A DNA stretch of 64,000 nucleotides, taken from a virus. Lineage: Duplodnaviria; Caudoviricetes. A program made the translations under genes and the position numbers. The notes below the pieces were generated by a model. The model was not told where the DNA came from, did not search any database, and was given only the letters and a program-made list of their open reading frames with translations. Of the stretch, positions 1,985-63,401 are shown piece by piece. The stretch is taken from IMG/VR virus record IMGVR_UViG_3300036987_000310, positions 128,001 to 192,000 of that record. The stretch is one strand, 5' to 3'. Within the stretch, counting starts at the first letter, position 1, and each line of letters begins with the position of its first letter.

Positions 1985-2266
1985 ATGGACATCCGGAAAA
2001 TCGCGTCAAGAGTTGCAGAAGGGTGGCAAGACAAGCTTCACGGGGGTCTTGCCGACGACAACATCCCTGAAAACTTCAACCCTATACAACTTGTCAACGG
2101 ACTTGTCGTAGAGCTTGAACACGTCAACAAAGAAGCTCACGAAATGCTGAAAAATGCTCCAGACGACATTCATAAAGCATTAGAAATCGCCATGGACCAT
2201 CTTACTGAAGACGCGGAGTACTACACCAAGCTCGCGAAAATGGAGGGGGAAGAGTTTGTAGGCTAG
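1985..2266 (+). CDS. DUF5661-like phage protein with N-terminal IAxRVA motif
   Basis: VELEH...IAMDHLTEDAEYYTKLAKME recalled as DUF5661-like; starts MDIRKIASRVA. Confidence 0.65.
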   Translation: MDIRKIASRVAEGWQDKLHGGLADDNIPENFNPIQLVNGLVVELEHVNKEAHEMLKNAPDDIHKALEIAMDHLTEDAEYYTKLAKMEGEEFVG

Positions 2267-2538
2267 GACTCGTCTTTGACGCTTCCGTACCACCCGGCTT
2301 CCATTACTCGTCTTGCCGTTTCTGCCACTGCTTTTTGATCGTCCGCCCGGCCTTTGGCTAAAGACGTCAAAATTTTGCGCAGCAACGCGTCCCCTCTTTT
2401 GCGGGCTTTCTTTTCATCGGACGCAGACAGAGTTTCAAACTCGGCAGCGATGTCTTTTGCCTTCAAAAAAGGTATTTTGTTTGCGACAACAACAGTGTCC
2501 CCATTCGCAATAGCCCTAGCAAACTTGTCGATCTCCAA
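2263..2538 (-). CDS. Hypothetical protein
   Basis: 91-aa ORF, TTG start, convergent with upstream + gene. Confidence 0.5.
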   Translation of the reverse strand: MEIDKFARAIANGDTVVVANKIPFLKAKDIAAEFETLSASDEKKARKRGDALLRKILTSLAKGRADDQKAVAETARRVMEAGWYGSVKDES

Positions 2539-2588
2539 GTCAGTTTCTCCTATTTCCTGTCAAGTTAGTTCACGCAAATACTTTACAG

Positions 2589-2662
2589 TGCTGACGGCGA
2601 GATTCGAACTCGCACTAAACGCGGTTTGAGCACGTCGCCTCTGCCAGTTGGGCTACGTCAGC
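2589..2662 (-). tRNA. tRNA-Leu(CAA), short variable loop
   Basis: GCTGACG/CGTCAGC acceptor, loop CTCAAAC, TTCGAAT T-loop, 5-nt variable region. Confidence 0.9.
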
Positions 2663-2898
2663 ATGACTGTCATCAGGGCTTTCCTGTCTTGCATGGACCC
2701 ACAATTCAATGGACCACACCATCCTTCAGGGCGGTCAAGTTCACATTCATATGGCTTTGTGCGACCAACTTCGTCGATCATGGCAATGACCCCGCACACC
2801 TTGCAAGACGTGTAACCTCTAAGTTTTGCGGTCCATGTATGGCCGCCCATGTCGTAAATGTGCGTGTTTTTGTCGTAGCACATCACGAGTTTGTCCAT
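2653..2898 (-). CDS. HxW...CxxC small protein with tag-like end (TVMLT); stop lies inside tRNA-Leu
   Basis: GHTW...CKVC...LNCG...ALMTVMLT*; last codons CTG ACG TAG are the tRNA 5' end. Confidence 0.6.
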   Translation of the reverse strand: MDKLVMCYDKNTHIYDMGGHTWTAKLRGYTSCKVCGVIAMIDEVGRTKPYECELDRPEGWCGPLNCGSMQDRKALMTVMLT

Positions 2899-2899
2899 G

Positions 2900-3109
2900 C
2901 TATGACTCGTTGACATCTTCCACAACACCGAGCTTGCATTGTGGTTTGTGCTCCCCAATACATTCGCATTCCTCGCATTTTCGGAGGGCGTAGAAAGCAG
3001 AAGCCCCAGCAGGCATTTCTTGTACAGGAAACAATCCTATGGCCATGGACGCCATACTGACTCGATAAGTCGCCGCGTCAGCCAACGCTTGTCTTGCTTG
3101 ACCTATCAT
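2900..3109 (-). CDS. Small protein with capsid-like segment, Cys/His knuckle and tag (DVNES); start uncertain
   Basis: ARQALA...FPVQEMPAGASAFY, CEECECIGEHKPQC, ends VVEDVNES. Confidence 0.55.
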   Translation of the reverse strand: MIGQARQALADAATYRVSMASMAIGLFPVQEMPAGASAFYALRKCEECECIGEHKPQCKLGVVEDVNES

Positions 3110-3131
3110 CCGGGTGACGGCTTGAATATCA

Positions 3132-3503
3132 TCAGCTGTCCATGACGTCTGCGACTCTGCATGTGTCAACATCATGATCTCTTTGTTTTTTGCATTCCAC
3201 GCACCAAACACTGAATTCAAACTTCCCATAGATGTCTCTCCATGGGTTGGAGCGTTTGGTGCGTGGAACTATGGCACTGTCGGGACATGCGGCATTCGTG
3301 AACGGTTTTGGGAAGTACGCTCTGACCTCCATCAAGTTTTTTCTCTTAACAACTGTGACAAGGTCAGCTAACAGGTCCCACTTTTCCACTTCTCTCAGAG
3401 TCTCAGCTATTGGGGATTTGATCCATTCCCATTCACTGCTAAAAATGTCGTCTTCGACAAAGTCAAAGTTGGCGGCAAGACGAGTCCCCCACAGTTTCTT
3501 CAT
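3132..3503 (-). CDS. Hypothetical protein with CxxC...H...C knuckle and tag (DVMDS)
   Basis: CVECKKQRDHDVDTCRVADVMDS*; ATG shares the A of the tRNA CCA. Confidence 0.7.
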   Translation of the reverse strand: MKKLWGTRLAANFDFVEDDIFSSEWEWIKSPIAETLREVEKWDLLADLVTVVKRKNLMEVRAYFPKPFTNAACPDSAIVPRTKRSNPWRDIYGKFEFSVWCVECKKQRDHDVDTCRVADVMDS

Positions 3504-7992: not shown

Positions 7993-8361
7993 ATGAACTC
8001 ATACGCATACGCAAACTTGGACACCCGAAACGACCAAAACCATATTTGGGTACCAAATATTCCGGTGGAAGAACTTCGAATTTATGTTCGAATTTTATGC
8101 CAAGTCCATGTAGTCAAGAACTCAGTAAGTCCTGATCATGCGTGGTTCAATCACCATATGTCGCGGTTGCAGCGGGCTGTTGTTGTGTTGAAAAGAAAAT
8201 ATCCTAAACACATGGCAAACAAGCAAGCGGCTTGGAACTTGGCCCGCGTCGAAGCCGTTCTGTGGCTTGAAAACACCAATGCAGACGCGACTGTGCGATC
8301 GTCTGTGTTGGAAAGTCTGAAATGTGGGCTGCCACAAATAGACAACGCACAGCTCATCTAG
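7993..8361 (+). CDS. Hypothetical protein
   Basis: 122-aa ORF downstream of the operator-like array. Confidence 0.5.
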   Translation: MNSYAYANLDTRNDQNHIWVPNIPVEELRIYVRILCQVHVVKNSVSPDHAWFNHHMSRLQRAVVVLKRKYPKHMANKQAAWNLARVEAVLWLENTNADATVRSSVLESLKCGLPQIDNAQLI

Positions 8362-8411
8362 TGCTTGGGAACCGTTTGAAACCATCGCACTAGAAACTGC
8401 ATGGAGGAAAC

Positions 8412-8717
8412 ATGCATACGCATACGCAAACTCGCACAAATGTTAAAGCAACAGCTCAGTTCATAACTTTTAACGACGAACTGATGATGAGATATGCCAC
8501 CAGTTTGGTTAGGCTCATAGTGTTTAACAAACACTGTGGTCCAGAGCATTCTTGCACTATTGAAGAAACACGAATTTTTCGCAAATACGATGATGAAATC
8601 GTGCGACATACCAAAGCTTTGTCTTTTCGTTGTGCGTCCATGCCGCTTGCCCATGCTTTCGTCAACCGCTTGACGAAAGCATGGGCAAGCGGCACAATTT
8701 TTAAACGACAGCCCTAG
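8412..8717 (+). CDS. Hypothetical protein (low confidence)
   Basis: GGAGG before ATG; 3' end runs through a 25-bp hairpin. Confidence 0.35.
   Translation: MHTHTQTRTNVKATAQFITFNDELMMRYATSLVRLIVFNKHCGPEHSCTIEETRIFRKYDDEIVRHTKALSFRCASMPLAHAFVNRLTKAWASGTIFKRQP
8641..8694. repeat. Perfect 25-bp inverted repeat with 4-nt loop
   Basis: TGCCGCTTGCCCATGCTTTCGTCAA-CCGC-TTGACGAAAGCATGGGCAAGCGGCA. Confidence 0.9.
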
Positions 8718-8790: not shown

Positions 8791-8859
8791 TCGCGACGGA
8801 GGGAGTTGAACCCTCGTCCTAGCCCATATGAAAGGCTGGCCTCGCCTCAAGTCGTCGCG
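8791..8859 (-). tRNA. Atypical CAT-anticodon tRNA with degenerate D-arm (possible pseudo-tRNA)
   Basis: CGCGACG/CGTCGCG acceptor, loop TTCATAT, T-arm intact, only 69 nt. Confidence 0.6.
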
Positions 8860-8936
8860 TGGTTGCGGGCGCGGGGAGTTGAACCCCGCTGTCTCCAGCG
8901 TATGAAACTGGCGTGGAACCGTTTCACTCGCCCGCA
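8860..8936 (-). tRNA. tRNA-Met(CAT), encoded CCA
   Basis: TGCGGGC/GCCCGCA acceptor, loop TTCATAC. Confidence 0.85.
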
Positions 8937-8937
8937 G

Positions 8938-9010
8938 TGGATCCCAGGAGATTCGAACTCCTCGCCTCCGCGGTGCAAGCGCGGCGCTCTCCCAAATGAG
9001 CTAGGAACCC
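8938..9010 (-). tRNA. tRNA-Ala(TGC)
   Basis: Loop CTTGCAC, G3.U70 pair, A73. Confidence 0.92.
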
Positions 9011-9015
9011 ATTTG

Positions 9016-9088
9016 CGCTTCCGGCAGGACTTGAACCTGCAATCTCGCGGTTCGGAGCCGCGTGTCTTGTCCGTTGGACTACGGAAGC
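9016..9088 (-). tRNA. tRNA-Arg(CCG)
   Basis: GCTTCCG/CGGAAGC acceptor, loop CTCCGAA. Confidence 0.9.
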
Positions 9089-9101
9089 GTATTATCAAAA
9101 A

Positions 9102-9517
9102 TGATTGAAATCCTGGAGGAATTTGAAGAAGGACGTTTAGGAGGAGAGCCTGAAGCTTTGGGCGCGGGCGATCTTATTCTCAACATCGTCAAGGACGTGC
9201 AATCGCTAGACGCCAGTTTAGTATGGATCGGAAAAGATTATGCGACTTGGAGCTTGAACGAAGTCAAGATACGGGTTGACACAAAGCGGAGCCATTCATA
9301 TGCTCCATTGTTTGAAGAAGAGTTTCTTCAATGGCTGTCCTCGGCAAATCAGACACTGGACGGCTTCGGAAGAAAGCGGACGATGGAAGCTTTCCAAATG
9401 TCGCTTCCCGGCAAGTTGAGCATAAGCCATTCGGCAATGATCGTTGTTGGATGGGAAGAAGATGAGAGTCACCAGGATGCAATGCTACTGTCTATAGGGG
9501 AAGTTATGAATCAATAA
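9102..9517 (+). CDS. Hypothetical protein with tag (EVMNQ)
   Basis: Start moved past tRNA to ATG 9102; ends SIGEVMNQ. Confidence 0.6.
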
Positions 9518-59114: not shown

Positions 59115-59606
59115 TTACTCATTGTGTATCTCGAATAACGCCACCTCGTCCTTGTCGAGCGTCATAGCTATGTCAAACCGATTTATTGTTTCGTGTTTCG
59201 CACATCTCGGGTAAACCCTGTCAAATTTTGACACATGCCAAACAACGGCATCGCGTTCACATGTCAAACTATGAGTCGGATTTTCTGCCATGAAATGTCC
59301 ACAACGCTTTTCAAAAACTCTGAAATTGTTCTTTATGGCGTTTGGGGAGCTTCCGTACATCAGCCCAAAGTTCAAATGTTTTTCACTCGACATGACGGAG
59401 TCTATTGTGAAAAATGCTTCGTTAACAGTTTCTGCCATCTTTTCAAAAACAAGTGTGAAAGCCGATGGAGCGCAAAATTTCATTCCAACGTTTTTAACAC
59501 CCGGCATCGGGTTGCAAACGTGCAGTTCCGATTTGCAAGACTCTGCCAAAAGACTCATGAGTCGAATTTCCATTTGAGAATAATTGGAATTTCGCATGTT
59601 CATCAT
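59115..59606 (-). CDS. Hypothetical protein with tag (EIHNE)
   Basis: Ends VALFEIHNE. Confidence 0.65.
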   Translation of the reverse strand: MMNMRNSNYSQMEIRLMSLLAESCKSELHVCNPMPGVKNVGMKFCAPSAFTLVFEKMAETVNEAFFTIDSVMSSEKHLNFGLMYGSSPNAIKNNFRVFEKRCGHFMAENPTHSLTCERDAVVWHVSKFDRVYPRCAKHETINRFDIAMTLDKDEVALFEIHNE

Positions 59607-60784
59607 TGTCGTTCATCGCTCAAAATCTCGACCCCATGAGCCAGGCCAACTTTTAGCTTCGCTTTCCGCCCGACCCGAAAAGTTTTAAACTCTTGAAAGC
59701 TTTTCGGGTCGTACACGTGCTTCTCGTTGTTCAGGTCTGAAAACACAACCTGGTAAACCTCCTCTCGTCTTTGACGTTCTTTCTCACCCTGCCCCAGCAT
59801 GACAACAAGTTCTTGTGATTCAGGCCAGGTTGGACTTGTGTCGCGGCCGGAGTGTTTCACAGTTCTGTTGAATTCCCAGTCCCAAACTTTCCATGAATAC
59901 CAGTCTCGGTATCTAGGCTCATACCGATAGTCAGTAACAGTTTTGTATGCAGTTCTAGTGCAAGTTTTCGGAGTGCAACTTTGCCCGCCTCCAGTGCAGG
60001 TTGCCGTGCCGTTGCCATTCGAAGTGCAAGACAGTGGAATGCTGACGCATGTTTGTCCACATGGATAACTTTCCACATAGGGTTCTTGATGACTGCCGGA
60101 GACAACCTTGTCGTGGTGGTGTAGGCGCGAACCTTCATTTTTGACGTCGAATGCATTGTTGTCCGGGTTCCACCCATCTCGGCCCAAAACTTGATACCGA
60201 TCAATGTGAACCCTATACTCCCAGGATGTGTCTGTAACAGAAGCCTCCACAATTTTTGTGCGAAACACAAGCCAAACGACGATTCCAACTAGCACAAGCA
60301 CAGTTGTCGTCAACGCCACCCGTTTCCACGCGGCAGTATTTCGACGAAATGGGTTCCCAACTTCTTTCCATCGGCCGACGGGAGGTTCGCGGGTGGAAGC
60401 GGGAACTTCGTAGCTTTCTGTTGAAACGCTAGGTTCGTCAATCTGTTTAGTTTTTGAAACAGTTTCAGACCCCTCAACGATCGTGGAAATTTTTGCAGTC
60501 CATTGCCTTCGGCCAGAAACTTTGTCGCATCCGCATTCTGAACAGCATTTGTTCAAGCTAGACTGAAGCGACTGACAGTACATGCACTGCCAGTCAGGGC
60601 CTGCTTCGGCTTTTCTCTTTGCCTCGCCACGAAGAGCGTTTGTTTCGCTTATGTCTGACGGAAAATAATCTTCGCAGCCCGGATCCTTTGGGCGCCCACA
60701 GTTCACACAATGCTTTAATAGGCCACCGTTTCCCTTGTGGCCGCAAGTGCAGTCCCACAGCATCTCGATGACATACTTTTGCAT
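59603..60784 (-). CDS. Membrane-anchored protein with two N-terminal Zn ribbons and Cys-rich extracellular domain
   Basis: WDCTC...CVNCG, WQCMYC...CSECG, one TM helix, CGQTC..C..C...C. Confidence 0.7.
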   Translation of the reverse strand: MQKYVIEMLWDCTCGHKGNGGLLKHCVNCGRPKDPGCEDYFPSDISETNALRGEAKRKAEAGPDWQCMYCQSLQSSLNKCCSECGCDKVSGRRQWTAKISTIVEGSETVSKTKQIDEPSVSTESYEVPASTREPPVGRWKEVGNPFRRNTAAWKRVALTTTVLVLVGIVVWLVFRTKIVEASVTDTSWEYRVHIDRYQVLGRDGWNPDNNAFDVKNEGSRLHHHDKVVSGSHQEPYVESYPCGQTCVSIPLSCTSNGNGTATCTGGGQSCTPKTCTRTAYKTVTDYRYEPRYRDWYSWKVWDWEFNRTVKHSGRDTSPTWPESQELVVMLGQGEKERQRREEVYQVVFSDLNNEKHVYDPKSFQEFKTFRVGRKAKLKVGLAHGVEILSDERQ

Positions 60785-60841
60785 GTATCCCCTTACGCAA
60801 CGCCTTTCAACATTTACGCAAGAATACACTCGTGATTTGAA

Positions 60842-61066
60842 TCAGGACATTTTTATCAAGCTGAGCTTGGCGGCTCTTTTCACAGCCTCAATCAAATCAA
60901 GGTCGTCTGATTCTGACAAAAGCCCGGCTTTCACGTCTCTGTCATCATGATCAAATCTGGCCAAAACCATTGGAACTTCCTTTAGACACACATATAGGTC
61001 GAACAGACCGCGCTGGCCAAGGTATACGCAGTGTGTGCACGAATTCATGTATCGAGGTCTTCCCAC
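60842..61066 (-). CDS. Small hypothetical protein
   Basis: CTHCVYLG...DLYVC. Confidence 0.6.
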   Translation of the reverse strand: MGRPRYMNSCTHCVYLGQRGLFDLYVCLKEVPMVLARFDHDDRDVKAGLLSESDDLDLIEAVKRAAKLSLIKMS

Positions 61067-61084
61067 GATATTTCAGGCCAATCA

Positions 61085-62170
61085 ATGGCTCATCGTGTAC
61101 AGTTTGTGATGGCAAAACCAGGTCTTTCAGAGCATTTGTCCTTTGACGACGTTCTCCTGACTCCTCAATATAGCGAAGTGGTCCCGGCAGACGTGGACGT
61201 CAGCACTTCGTTAGCCGGAATAAAGTTAAAAATTCCGATTTTGAGCGCCGCCATGGACACGGTGACTGAAAGCGCCATGATGACGGCCATGGCTGCAGCC
61301 GGCGGCATTGGGGTTTTGCACAAAAATTTGTCCCCGTCCCAACAAATGTTGGAAATCGAAAAAGTCAAAGAATCATGGGGTCACGTTCCGGTTTCTGACA
61401 GGTCTACGGCAATCGCCGTTGGCGTGAACGACTGGCGTGAACGGCTTCTGGCGTGCCGTGGACTCGTGGACCTTGTGGTGATCGATTCGGCACACGGCCA
61501 CTCGAAAAATGTGATGCGGGCTGTTTCAGACATAAGAGCTGAGTTTAAATATGTGAAAATTATGGCAGGAAATGTTGTTACCCCAGAAGCAGTAAGAGAC
61601 CTAGCAACTGCTGGTGCTGATATAATTAAATGTGGGATAGGACCGGGGAGTATTTGCACAACGCGCCTTGTGTCGGGATGCGGAATGCCCCAGTTTAGCG
61701 CGATCATGAGTTGCGCTGAAGAGGCTGACAAACTCTCGGTGTTTCTGGTGGCTGATGGCGGAATCCGATGCTCCGGGGACATAGTGAAAGCGCTAGCTGC
61801 CGGGGCAGATGCCGTCATGATTGGTTCGATGTTGGCTGGAACAACTGAGTCCCCGGGAGAAGTTGTTGACGGACAATGGAAAAATTATAGGGGCATGGGG
61901 TCTGTCGCCGCCATGGAACGCGGTTCAAAAGACAGGTATGGGCAATCCGGCGTCTCTAAGGACAAACTTGTTCCTGAAGGCGTGGAAGCGATGGTTCCAT
62001 ACAAAGGATCCATTGAAGGCATCCTGCACCAGCTAGTTGGCGGTTTAAAGTCAGGGATGGGGTATGTCGGAGCAGCCGATCTGTCTCAACTTCGGTCTCG
62101 TGCAAAATTTGTTCGAGTCACCACGTCAGGGATTCGAGAGAATGGCGTACACGACGTAAAAGTTGGGTGA
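61085..62170 (+). CDS. guaB: IMP dehydrogenase lacking the CBS subdomain
   Basis: LSFDDVLL, SAAMDTVTE, DSAHG, GIGPGSICTTR (catalytic Cys), YRGMGS, VPEGVE. Confidence 0.93.
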   Translation: MAHRVQFVMAKPGLSEHLSFDDVLLTPQYSEVVPADVDVSTSLAGIKLKIPILSAAMDTVTESAMMTAMAAAGGIGVLHKNLSPSQQMLEIEKVKESWGHVPVSDRSTAIAVGVNDWRERLLACRGLVDLVVIDSAHGHSKNVMRAVSDIRAEFKYVKIMAGNVVTPEAVRDLATAGADIIKCGIGPGSICTTRLVSGCGMPQFSAIMSCAEEADKLSVFLVADGGIRCSGDIVKALAAGADAVMIGSMLAGTTESPGEVVDGQWKNYRGMGSVAAMERGSKDRYGQSGVSKDKLVPEGVEAMVPYKGSIEGILHQLVGGLKSGMGYVGAADLSQLRSRAKFVRVTTSGIRENGVHDVKVG

Positions 62171-62783: not shown

Positions 62784-63401
62784 TTAGCATAACCGCACGA
62801 GCCTTTCCGGCTCCGGCACCCAGTCGGGAGCAAGGTCATGGTCATCTTCGTCCTCACCCACAGGCAAGGCAAAACCTACCGGAATGGCTCGCTTCAGACG
62901 GATCTCGGTATTCCAGATCCGCCCCTGGATGCCTTGCCGAAGCATCACTTCCCGCGTCTCCATGTCGATGAGGTTGCTGCCATATATGCACACGTCGGCC
63001 CAATCCGTGGCATTAAGCCATACCCGTTTGACGATGGTGTCCCAGTCCTCGACCACGGTACCGAACGCCTTGGTGAGCACGTCCGGCGTCACAATGGAAC
63101 GAGGTTCCTTGGCTGCGGCTTGTGCTCGCCGATAGGCGTCTTCCAGGGCCTCAATGACTGTGTCCCGCAGCGGCGTGCTTGGGGCGTTCTGCTCGATGAG
63201 CCTCGCCAAGGCGAGGAAGCCCTCCTGCAAAGCCTGAAGCGCCGTAACCTGGCGGTCCTCAAGGGGCCTCGGCGGCCCGAACACATGGTCAATCCTGCTC
63301 ATGGTTCTTTCCTCGTGCCATTGGCTTAGTCGGATTTGATTTGCTTCAAGATACGCTCGACGGTGGGGCGCGTTGACTGTTTCTATATCGAGAACGGTCA
63401 C
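62784..63401 (-). CDS. Putative Acb2/Tad1-like helical hairpin fused to a major-capsid-like segment (start possibly ATG 63302)
   Basis: IDHVF.P..P...Q...L...FL.LA..I...AP.T..R...IEALEDAYRRAQAAA; then VWLNATDWAD...DMET...GIQGRIW...R.IPVG. Confidence 0.55.
   Translation of the reverse strand: MTVLDIETVNAPHRRAYLEANQIRLSQWHEERTMSRIDHVFGPPRPLEDRQVTALQALQEGFLALARLIEQNAPSTPLRDTVIEALEDAYRRAQAAAKEPRSIVTPDVLTKAFGTVVEDWDTIVKRVWLNATDWADVCIYGSNLIDMETREVMLRQGIQGRIWNTEIRLKRAIPVGFALPVGEDEDDHDLAPDWVPEPERLVRLC

What the first reader, a model, noticed from the sequence alone, without database searches (positions are those of the whole stretch)
62784..63401. Acb2/Tad1-like sponge hairpin fused to a major-capsid-protein-like fragment
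Seen: from ATG 63302, MSRIDHVFGPPRPLEDRQVTALQALQEGFLALARLIEQNAPSTPLRDTVIEALEDAYRRAQAAA, followed by PDVLTKAFGTVVEDWDTIVKRVWLNATDWADVCIYGSNLIDMETREVMLRQGIQGRIWNTEIRLKRAIPVG. From recalled family patterns: the first part matches the helical-hairpin pattern of Acb2/Tad1 cyclic-nucleotide sponges (I..F.YH.P...Q...IR...K.LA..I....P.S.ER..A...LEEA...ANAAI), although the usual YH is replaced by PP. The second part matches the C-terminal region of HK97-fold major capsid proteins of large phages (V..IFMNA.DYAD.RK.G.D.LD.E....LL.TG....LWGA.I..SR.VP.G). Inference: a decoy or anti-defence chimera that presents a capsid epitope, or carries a sponge into the head.
Basis: inference. Interest (0 to 1): 0.78.

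Follow-up and report, generated by a model that had tools for sequence, protein, structure and literature searches.

The report
Sponge-type hairpin joined to capsid A-domain
A 377-kb phage carries a small, conserved accessory protein made of two borrowed parts, a helical hairpin related to the Acb2/Tad1 proteins that phages use to soak up bacterial alarm molecules, and a free-standing copy of one domain of the phage's own capsid protein; this build has not been described and its function is untested.

Summary
The gene is real, but it most likely starts at ATG 63302 (172 aa), not at the GTG at 63401.

**C-terminal half.** Residues 68-172 are a copy of the A-domain of this phage clade's HK97-fold major capsid protein (MCP). 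hhalign gives probability 99.7%, E 6e-27. A PDB profile search hits the phage G MCP at E 9.5e-27. Structure comparison gives Z up to 8.6. The N-arm, E-loop and P-domain are missing, so the protein cannot build a shell.

**N-terminal half.** Residues 1-67 form a helical hairpin. It misses Pfam PF24729 (Acb2_Tad1_hairpin) directly. It reaches the family through Microbacterium-phage proteins that are full PF24729 members:
- phrog_1454, E 2e-6
- BLASTP, 35% identity, E 8e-8
- hhalign, probability 92%

The four ligand-contact residues defined in PaMx33 Acb2 are not kept.

**Other evidence.**
- A homodimer through the hairpin alone is predicted (score 0.60, best control 0.00).
- At least 30 sequence clusters share the build.
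- dN/dS is 0.16.
- The gene is absent from ten related huge phages and has no conserved neighbours.

**Reading.** It is an accessory, probably anti-defence, oligomer that displays A-domains. Whether it sequesters a signal, blocks a capsid sensor or docks to capsids is open.

The parts
62784..63302 (-). Coding sequence of the 172-aa protein (P0002), stop codon included
   Evidence: ORF list and translation. The start is supported by an RBS, by the gene call on record and by all homologues. dN/dS against the closest relative is 0.16.
63310..63314 (-). GAGGA ribosome-binding word 8 nt upstream of ATG 63302
   Evidence: Read directly from the minus-strand sequence.
63303..63401 (-).
   Evidence: No homologue has this extension. 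No SD word precedes the GTG.
63102..63302 (-). Residues 1-67: FGPP motif plus a two-helix hairpin (helices 16-39 and 44-64), a remote Acb2/Tad1-hairpin relative and the predicted dimer interface
   Evidence: AF2 model. phrog_1454 E 2.1e-6. BLASTP to Lyell gp34 E 8e-8. hhalign probability 92.4%. Dimer interface residues 21-75.
62787..63101 (-). Residues 68-172: stand-alone A-domain derived from the clade's HK97-fold major capsid protein
   Evidence: hhalign probability 99.7%, E 6e-27, to MCP residues 166-245. 6wkk E 9.5e-27. VIA Z 8.6, 8.1 and 7.6 to capsid and encapsulin A-domains.
62823..62855 (-). Residues 150-160: acidic loop (EDEDDHDLAPD) at the place where the MCP has its roughly 40-residue P-domain excursion
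   Evidence: The hhalign match ends at residue 151 / MCP 245. Structural alignments span to the MCP C-termini while skipping about 40 target residues. The DL.PDW.P motif is conserved in the family.

Best explanation
**What is shown.** The gene encodes a conserved 172-aa accessory protein of huge phages built from two recruited modules.
- Residues 1-67 are a two-helix hairpin homologous, at profile level, to the Acb2/Tad1 hairpin family of phage immune-signal sponges.
- Residues 68-172 are a free-standing A-domain copied from the phage clade's own HK97-fold major capsid protein. It has no N-arm, E-loop or P-domain, so it cannot form a shell.

**What is predicted.** Two hairpins pack into a symmetric helical bundle, which leaves the A-domains on the outside.

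**What is inferred.** As in Acb2 and Tad1, the hairpin is the oligomerisation core of an anti-defence protein made during infection. The appended A-domain is a second binding module, in the way that Tad1 and the known sponge-sponge fusions add a second pocket or activity.

Because the cGAMP- and cA3-contact residues of Acb2 are all replaced, any ligand of the hairpin would differ from those of PaMx33 Acb2. The hairpin may also serve only as a scaffold.
For: **Architecture**
- AF2 on a 30-sequence alignment gives pLDDT 95 and pTM 0.81.
- A-domain: hhalign probability 99.7%, E 6e-27, to MCP 166-245; PDB profile hit 6wkk at E 9.5e-27; VIA Z 8.6, 8.1 and 7.6 over model residues 68-172.
- Hairpin: phrog_1454 at E 2.1e-6. 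Lyell gp34 matches phrog_1454 at E 4e-16 and PF24729 at E 1e-13. BLASTP to gp34 gives 35% identity over 66 aa, E 8e-8.
- hhalign of the hairpin family against gp34-like proteins gives probability 92.4%. Those proteins against T4 Vs.4-like Acb2 give 93.5%.
- PF24729 is the only Pfam family hit by more than one of the 30 relatives (4 of 30, all sub-threshold).
- BFVD and Atlas hairpin matches are mostly PF24729 proteins.
- The hairpin against the MCP gives only 1% probability.

**Function under selection**
- At least 30 clusters share the build.
- dN/dS is 0.16 overall, 0.20 for the hairpin and 0.11 for the A-domain.

**Oligomer**
- Homodimer score 0.60 against a best control of 0.00. That mark was reached by 20 of 30 proteins solved as pairs and 1 of 23 solved as single chains.
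- The three runs agree in at least 98% of contacts, and partner pLDDT is at least 83.
- The interface is residues 21-75 only. Acb2 and Tad1 complexes are solved, so part of this score may come from memory.

**Accessory character**
- The gene lies 137 kb from the MCP gene, among small unknown genes.
- It is absent from 10 related huge-phage records, 4 of them complete.
- No neighbour is conserved between contexts.
- One contig carries tandem paralogues.

**Precedent**
- All characterised Acb2/Tad1 members are homo-oligomeric sponges, and sponge domains occur fused to second domains (10.1101/2025.07.12.664507; 10.1101/2025.08.24.671296).
Against: - P0002 has no match to PF24729 even at E 10.
- Direct hhalign to T4-type Acb2 gives only 45% probability, over helix 1 only.
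- A PDB profile search with the hairpin alone does not return any Acb2.
- The residues shown by mutation to bind cGAMP (Y11, K26) and cA3 (R67, T74) in PaMx33 Acb2 (PMC10312549) align to P11, Q26, P44 and E51.
- Two-helix hairpins are common. Structural Z-scores to Acb2 proteins (6.3-7.3) sit among unrelated hairpins.
- No ligand binding, hexamer, timing of expression or host defence system could be examined.
- The A-domain module also occurs with unrelated N-termini and on its own, so its role need not be tied to a sponge.
Confidence: 0.45

Rival explanations
1. Capsid-sensor blocker or decoy. The hairpin only multimerises the protein. The displayed A-domains mimic the capsomer surface of the MCP and bind a host immune sensor that recognises capsid protein, keeping it from firing, or titrate it early in infection.
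For: - The A-domain is a close copy of this clade's own MCP A-domain (E 6e-27) and is under stronger constraint than the hairpin (dN/dS 0.11 against 0.20).
- The same module occurs alone, in tandem and with other N-termini in related phages, which suggests the A-domain is the functional constant.
- The predicted dimer leaves the A-domains free.
- The Acb2 ligand residues are lost.
- That several defence systems are triggered by major capsid proteins is established knowledge, not tested here.
Against: - Identity to the MCP is only 33%, while the MCP itself is 85-99% conserved across the clade. A faithful mimic would be expected to track it more closely.
- A capsid mimic could just as well trigger a sensor.
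- No host or defence system is known.
Confidence: 0.2
2. Capsid-docking accessory. The A-domain is an address that binds MCP capsomers or procapsids. The protein is then packaged or decorates the head, and possibly delivers the hairpin module into the next cell.
For: - In capsomers, A-domains contact each other around the 5- and 6-fold axes (established knowledge; summarised in PMC8346489).
- The module is attached to varied N-terminal parts, as a targeting tag would be.
Against: - The gene lies 137 kb from the structural genes.
- It is missing from 10 related phages whose MCP is 77-96% identical, so it is not part of the conserved head.
- No virion proteome is available.
- The dimer prediction involves no A-domain contacts.
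Confidence: 0.12
3. Not a fusion. The whole protein is a trimmed MCP paralogue (spine-helix region plus A-domain). The likeness of its helices to Acb2/Tad1 is convergence between simple helical hairpins.
For: - The family profile's match to the phage G MCP runs back into helix 2 (profile 49-152 against chain 131-233).
- One Atlas capsid model aligns over residues 15-172.
- PF24729 is not matched directly.
Against: - hhalign of the hairpin against the MCP alignment gives 1% probability, against 92.4% for bona fide PF24729 proteins.
- There is 35% pairwise identity over both helices to Lyell gp34.
- hhalign of the whole family against the clade's MCPs starts only at residue 71.
Confidence: 0.1
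4. A decaying remnant of an MCP duplication with no function.
For: Only part of the MCP is present, and the distribution is sporadic.
Against: - dN/dS is 0.16 in both halves.
- At least 30 diverged clusters keep the full build and length.
- The fold is predicted very confidently.
- The frame is intact and has an RBS.
Confidence: 0.02

Closest known systems
Acb2 (PaMx33 gp24, T4 Vs.4) and short Acb2 homologues such as Acb2_43; Pfam PF24729 Acb2_Tad1_hairpin
   Same: - Two long antiparallel helices of about 60 residues.
- Profile-level homology through Microbacterium-phage members.
- Predicted self-association through the hairpin.
- A small accessory phage gene.
   Different: - Below the Pfam threshold.
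- Y11, K26, R67 and T74 are all replaced (PMC10312549).
- Carries a 105-residue C-terminal domain that Acb2 lacks.
- Hexamer formation and ligand binding are untested.
Tad1, and the fused sponges Tad2-Acb4 and Tad2-PF21825 (10.1101/2025.07.12.664507)
   Same: A sponge-type module combined with a second domain in one small phage protein. In the known cases the second part adds another binding activity.
   Different: The second domain here is a capsid-protein A-domain, which is not a known sponge fold. No Tad1 chain appeared among the best structural matches, and no activity is known.
HK97-fold major capsid proteins of phage G-like huge phages (PDB 6wkk gp27; this phage's own MCP at genome positions 328566-329453)
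   Same: The A-domain is homologous: 33% identity to its own MCP residues 166-237, probability 99.7%.
   Different: - Lacks the N-arm, E-loop, spine helix and P-domain.
- 172 aa against 295 aa.
- Encoded 137 kb away, outside the head module.
- Evolves much faster than the MCP.
Family 4 'A-domain encapsulins' (PF08967/DUF1884, PDB 2pk8; PMC8346489)
   Same: An HK97 A-domain existing on its own as a protein of about 100 residues; 2pk8 appears as a weak Foldseek match (E 0.58).
   Different: - Those are archaeal or Rhodothermus proteins in operons with enzymes and have very low sequence similarity to capsids.
- This one is phage-encoded and recently derived from the phage's own MCP.
- It has no PF08967 match and is fused to a hairpin.

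Membership tests
Acb2/Tad1 hairpin (Pfam PF24729) | Match to the PF24729 model above its gathering score (27 bits) | tested here: not met
   P0001/P0002 have no hit at E up to 10, and no hit was found anywhere in the genome. Four of 30 relatives give sub-threshold hits, best E 0.0089. Positive controls score 52-71 bits: T4 Vs.4, five other Acb2 proteins and Lyell gp34.
Acb2/Tad1 hairpin (Pfam PF24729) | Profile-level homology to bona fide members | tested here: met
   phrog_1454 at E 2.1e-6, a PHROG whose member Lyell gp34 is a PF24729 protein. BLASTP E 8e-8. hhalign probability 92.4%, and a 93.5% onward link to T4-type Acb2. The direct link to T4-type Acb2 is only 45%.
Acb2/Tad1 hairpin (Pfam PF24729) | Two long antiparallel helices | tested here: met
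   AF2 helices 16-39 and 44-64 at pLDDT above 90. VIA Z 7.3, 6.6 and 6.3 to 9ptq, 7uq2 and 8h2j, though these sit among unrelated hairpins. Atlas TM 0.77 to a cluster that is 100% PF24729.
Acb2/Tad1 hairpin (Pfam PF24729) | Cyclic-dinucleotide pocket residues Y11 and K26 (PaMx33 numbering) | tested here: not met
   These align to P11 and Q26. Their role is taken from PMC10312549. The Microbacterium-phage branch also lacks them.
Acb2/Tad1 hairpin (Pfam PF24729) | Cyclic-trinucleotide pocket residues R67 and T74 | tested here: inconclusive
   Through two chained alignments they fall on P44 and E51. A family-conserved R46 lies two residues away in the hairpin turn, where the alignment is least certain.
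Acb2/Tad1 hairpin (Pfam PF24729) | Homo-hexamer built by interlocking hairpins | tested here: inconclusive
   Only a dimer could be modelled. Score 0.60 against a best control of 0.00, with an interface of residues 21-75. Six full-length copies exceed the tool's size limit.
Acb2/Tad1 hairpin (Pfam PF24729) | Binds and sequesters an immune nucleotide signal | not testable with these tools
   Needs purified protein and ligand assays.
HK97-fold major capsid protein | Complete fold: N-arm, E-loop, P-domain with spine helix, A-domain | tested here: not met
   Only the A-domain is present. The match covers MCP 166-245 plus a closing strand. The protein is 172 aa against 295 aa for the MCP.
HK97-fold major capsid protein | Encoded in the head-morphogenesis module and conserved with it | tested here: not met
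   The gene lies 137 kb from the MCP gene, is absent from 10 related phages that keep the MCP, and has small unknown genes as neighbours.
Family 4 A-domain encapsulins (PF08967) | PF08967 match and an operon with a partner enzyme in thermophilic archaea or Rhodothermus | tested here: not met
   No Pfam hit; phage context; only a weak structural match to 2pk8.

The most novel reading that the evidence does not exclude
Huge phages have turned the A-domain of their own capsid protein into a portable anti-defence module. It is found alone, in tandem and on varied N-terminal carriers. This protein would be a two-pronged inhibitor: a sponge-type hairpin oligomer that also displays capsid-like domains to blind host sensors that detect capsid protein, or the A-domain itself would be a new signal-binding sponge domain, as suggested by its fusion to a sponge module.
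Probability: 0.2. Interest if true: 0.85.

Novelty: new variant of a known kind. Interest (0 to 1): 0.62.

Why it matters
Sponge proteins are a major route by which phages defeat signalling immunity such as CBASS, Thoeris and Pycsar. New sponge families have recently been found by looking at what known sponge domains are fused to.

This is a conserved fusion of an Acb2/Tad1-type hairpin to a domain taken from the phage's own capsid protein. I found no description of that combination in the papers searched.

If the A-domain binds a signal or a capsid sensor, it would define a new anti-defence module. It would also be a clear case of a structural virion protein being exapted for counter-defence.

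It also shows that free-standing HK97 A-domains, so far discussed mainly as archaeal 'Family 4 encapsulins', form an unnamed and diverse protein class in large phages.

The protein is small, predicted to fold well and straightforward to test.

Tried and rejected
- **Pfam on the protein and its neighbours:** nothing for the protein.
- **Search for stand-alone short relatives of the hairpin** in the 5.8-billion-protein collection, using a 29-sequence profile: none found. The search is limited by its need for shared words.
- **PDB profile search with the hairpin alone:** only chance-level hits and no Acb2. The E 0.4 hit to 9ptq obtained with the whole-protein profile is therefore not counted as evidence.
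- **The search for related loci in IMG/VR with the family alignments:** no usable pattern, or no confirmed relative.
- **tblastn of the hairpin against GenBank phages:** two hits at E 5-9. One (Flavonifractor phage) lies on the non-coding strand and was discarded. The other (Lyell gp34) proved informative.
- **Link between the conserved C-terminal tail (PE.LVRL) and the MCP C-terminus (PRGLVRL):** not distinguishable from shuffled sequence. That the last strand corresponds to the MCP's closing strand rests only on structural alignments.
- **Synteny with the closest complete relative:** only the IMPDH-like gene is shared.
- **Conserved neighbours across five contexts:** none.
- **Promoter and terminator scan:** nothing above shuffles.
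- **Full-length hexamer modelling:** not possible within the 1000-residue limit.
- **Literature search for phrog_1454:** no paper.

Full report
**Setting**

The window is bases 128001-192000 of a 376,674-bp virus record with direct terminal repeats, judged complete. It is a huge phage. Its HK97-fold major capsid protein (MCP, 295 aa, P0003) is encoded at genome positions 328566-329453. The MCP belongs to the phage G-like group: PDB 6wkk gp27, and a 485-kb uncultured phage.

**The gene**

The ORF at 62784..63401 (-) is open for 205 codons from a GTG. The real start is almost certainly ATG 63302, giving 172 aa (P0002).
- A GAGGA word lies 8 nt upstream.
- The protein on record in the public collection starts there.
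- Every full-length relative starts at the equivalent Met.

An exhaustive HMMER search of 1.84 billion representative proteins found 73 relatives at E <= 1e-3. About 30 of them are proteins of roughly 170 aa aligned end to end (alignment A2). Against its closest relative (76% identity, from a 1.6-kb metagenome contig), dN/dS is 0.16 overall, 0.20 for the hairpin and 0.11 for the C-terminal half. This is an expressed-type gene under purifying selection in both halves, not a relic.

**Fold**

AlphaFold2 on the 30-sequence alignment gives a very confident model, with mean pLDDT 95 and pTM 0.81. It has three parts:
- a short N-terminal turn carrying the conserved FGPP motif;
- two long helices (16-39 and 44-64);
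- an alpha/beta domain (68-172).

**C-terminal half: a capsid A-domain**

Sequence evidence:
- The single sequence matches phage G gp27 (6wkk) at E 1.1e-7, residues 104-177 of the GTG form against chain 154-226.
- The family profile matches the same chain at E 9.5e-27.
- BLASTP to the phage's own MCP gives 33% identity over MCP 166-237, E 2e-13.
- hhalign of the family against an MCP alignment gives probability 99.7%, E 6e-27, residues 71-151 against MCP 166-245.

Structure evidence:
- An all-against-all structural search puts capsid and encapsulin A-domains on top for model residues 68-172. The top matches are NF5 capsid (Z 8.6, rmsd 3.7, 92 aligned), Patience MCP (Z 8.1) and SrpI encapsulin (Z 7.6).
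- The target ranges run to the chains' C-termini while skipping about 40 residues.
- Foldseek against PDB, BFVD and the ESM Atlas agrees.

The domain is therefore a whole A-domain. The MCP's P-domain excursion is replaced by an acidic loop (residues 150-160), and a closing strand is kept. That the last strand equals the MCP's C-terminal strand rests on structure only; the short sequence likeness is not above shuffles. The N-arm, E-loop, spine helix and P-domain are absent, so this is not a capsid protein.

**N-terminal half: an Acb2/Tad1-type hairpin, remotely**

Evidence against a direct link:
- Pfam's PF24729 model does not match P0002 even at E 10.
- A PDB profile search with the hairpin alone returns no Acb2.
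- Direct hhalign to T4 Vs.4-type Acb2 gives only 45% probability.
- Structural Z-scores to Acb2 proteins (7.3 to 9ptq, 6.6 to 7uq2, 6.3 to 8h2j) lie among many unrelated hairpins.

Evidence for an indirect link:
- The hairpin matches phrog_1454 at E 2.1e-6 over 64 of 81 profile positions. It is the only such match in the genome.
- A weak tblastn hit led to Microbacterium phage Lyell gp34 (83 aa). That protein is a full-length phrog_1454 member (E 4e-16) and a clear PF24729 member (51.7 bits).
- P0002 residues 6-69 align to gp34 without internal gaps in the helices, at 35% identity and pairwise E 8e-8.
- The hairpin family against five gp34-like proteins gives hhalign probability 92.4%, E 5e-7, over 56 columns spanning both helices. 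Those proteins link onward to T4-type Acb2 at 93.5%.
- PF24729 is the only Pfam family hit by more than one of the 30 relatives (4 of 30, best E 0.0089).
- In BFVD and in the Atlas, the hairpin's nearest neighbours by shape and by language-model features are mostly PF24729 proteins.
- The hairpin shows no relation to the MCP (1% probability).

I put true homology to the Acb2/Tad1 hairpin superfamily at about 0.8.

**Ligand residues**

In PaMx33 Acb2, Y11 and K26 are required for cGAMP binding, and R67 and T74 for cA3 binding (PMC10312549). Through the alignments these positions fall on P11, Q26, P44 and E51. A family-conserved R46 lies two residues from the R67 position, in the turn, where the alignment is least sure.

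The canonical pockets are therefore not kept. This does not rule out a sponge: Acb2_43 binds 3'cADPR with a different pocket and does not block CBASS (10.1101/2025.08.24.671296). It does mean that the ligand, if there is one, cannot be inferred.

**Self-association**

A two-copy prediction scored 0.60 (ipSAE) against a best control of 0.00.
- That mark was reached by 20 of 30 proteins solved as pairs and by 1 of 23 proteins solved as single chains.
- The three runs agree in at least 98% of contacts, and partner pLDDT is at least 83.
- The symmetric interface consists only of hairpin residues 21-75 (plus residue 172). The A-domains stay free.

Because Acb2 and Tad1 complexes are solved, part of this score may reflect likeness to them. 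It shows that the model treats the hairpin as an oligomerisation element, not that the protein binds itself in the cell. A hexamer could not be modelled within the size limit.

**Context and distribution**

- The gene sits in a minus-strand run of small genes of unknown function, convergent with an IMPDH/GMP-reductase-like gene. It lies 137 kb from the MCP gene.
- Ten related huge-phage records (MCP 77-96% identical, four of them complete) contain no hairpin-plus-A-domain gene. The family profile finds only their MCPs and a few A-domain-only ORFs.
- The closest complete relative shares only the IMPDH-like gene in this region.
- Across five genomic contexts of family members, nothing but the gene itself is shared.
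- One contig has two tandem paralogues, 54% identical.
- The MCP is 85-99% identical across more than 100 clusters, whereas this protein's relatives fall quickly to 30-50% identity.

All of this is typical of an accessory, fast-evolving gene. It is not typical of a head component.

**The A-domain as a portable module**

The same module occurs in several other forms:
- in tandem pairs behind a shared N-terminal motif;
- behind several unrelated N-terminal regions, none with a Pfam match;
- as stand-alone proteins of 100-160 aa.

The Atlas shows many unnamed viral clusters of 115-142 aa with this shape. The nearest described analogue is the archaeal 'Family 4 A-domain encapsulin' group (PMC8346489). 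It is unrelated in context and in Pfam terms.

**Interpretation**

- Shown: the two-module architecture, its conservation and its accessory distribution.
- Predicted: dimerisation through the hairpin.
- Inferred: an anti-defence role.

The best-supported mechanism (0.45) is a sponge-like oligomer whose hairpin core is inherited from Acb2/Tad1 and whose A-domains add a second binding function. This parallels Tad1 and the fused sponges used to discover new sponge families (10.1101/2025.07.12.664507).

Rivals:
- a capsid-sensor blocker or decoy (0.2);
- a capsid-docking or packaged accessory (0.12);
- a purely MCP-derived protein whose hairpin only converges on Acb2 (0.1);
- a relic (0.02, contradicted by the selection data).

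**Verdict**

The functional proposals remain open. This is a new architectural variant within a known kind (phage sponge-type proteins). It includes a newly recognised use of the capsid A-domain. It is of above-average interest and directly testable.

Noticed in passing
window 61031-62170 (+): IMP dehydrogenase/GMP reductase-family gene (PF00478, E 6e-131), convergent with the operon that holds the finding. It is the only gene of this region shared with the closest complete relative (69% aa identity).
   Followed up: partly
genome G000:C1:194784-195527 (-), 2.8 kb past the window end (L109:8784-9527): Sigma-70-family gene (regions 2, 3 and 4 detected), upstream in the same transcription direction as the finding's gene run.
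   Followed up: partly
proteins P0033, P0055, P0047, P0072, P0039: Relatives with one or two A-domain modules share a basic N-terminal motif of the form K.R..A.KTGMS..AA.N.L. It has no Pfam match and could be a DNA-binding or targeting element.
   Followed up: no
G003:C1:267604-267870 and 425250-425468; G008:C1:238511-238780: Related huge phages carry stand-alone A-domain ORFs of 100-159 aa with no hairpin. The G008 copy has two in-frame TAA codons, so it is a pseudogene or is recoded.
   Followed up: partly
L005 (NCBI GCA_029980445.1 contig) 8001-8528 and 8841-9368; 2117-3370: Two tandem paralogues of the hairpin-plus-A-domain protein (54% identical), separated by one small gene. A gene with an AcrVA2-like domain (PF26125) lies about 5 kb upstream.
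   Followed up: partly
genome G000:C1:328566-329453 (MCP): The MCP of this clade is extremely conserved (85-99% identity in more than 100 clusters from many metagenomes), while the surrounding genomes diverge so far that DNA-level synteny is lost.
   Followed up: partly
window 59603-60829 (-): 408-aa protein with several CxxC zinc-ribbon-like motifs, a hydrophobic segment and a Cys-rich C-terminal part. It has no Pfam match.
   Followed up: no
phrog_1454 ('unknown function') is an actinophage branch of the Acb2/Tad1 hairpin family. Its member Lyell gp34 matches PF24729 at 51.7 bits, and T4 Vs.4 and a siphovirus Acb2 hit it weakly. The PHROG annotation could be updated.
   Followed up: yes
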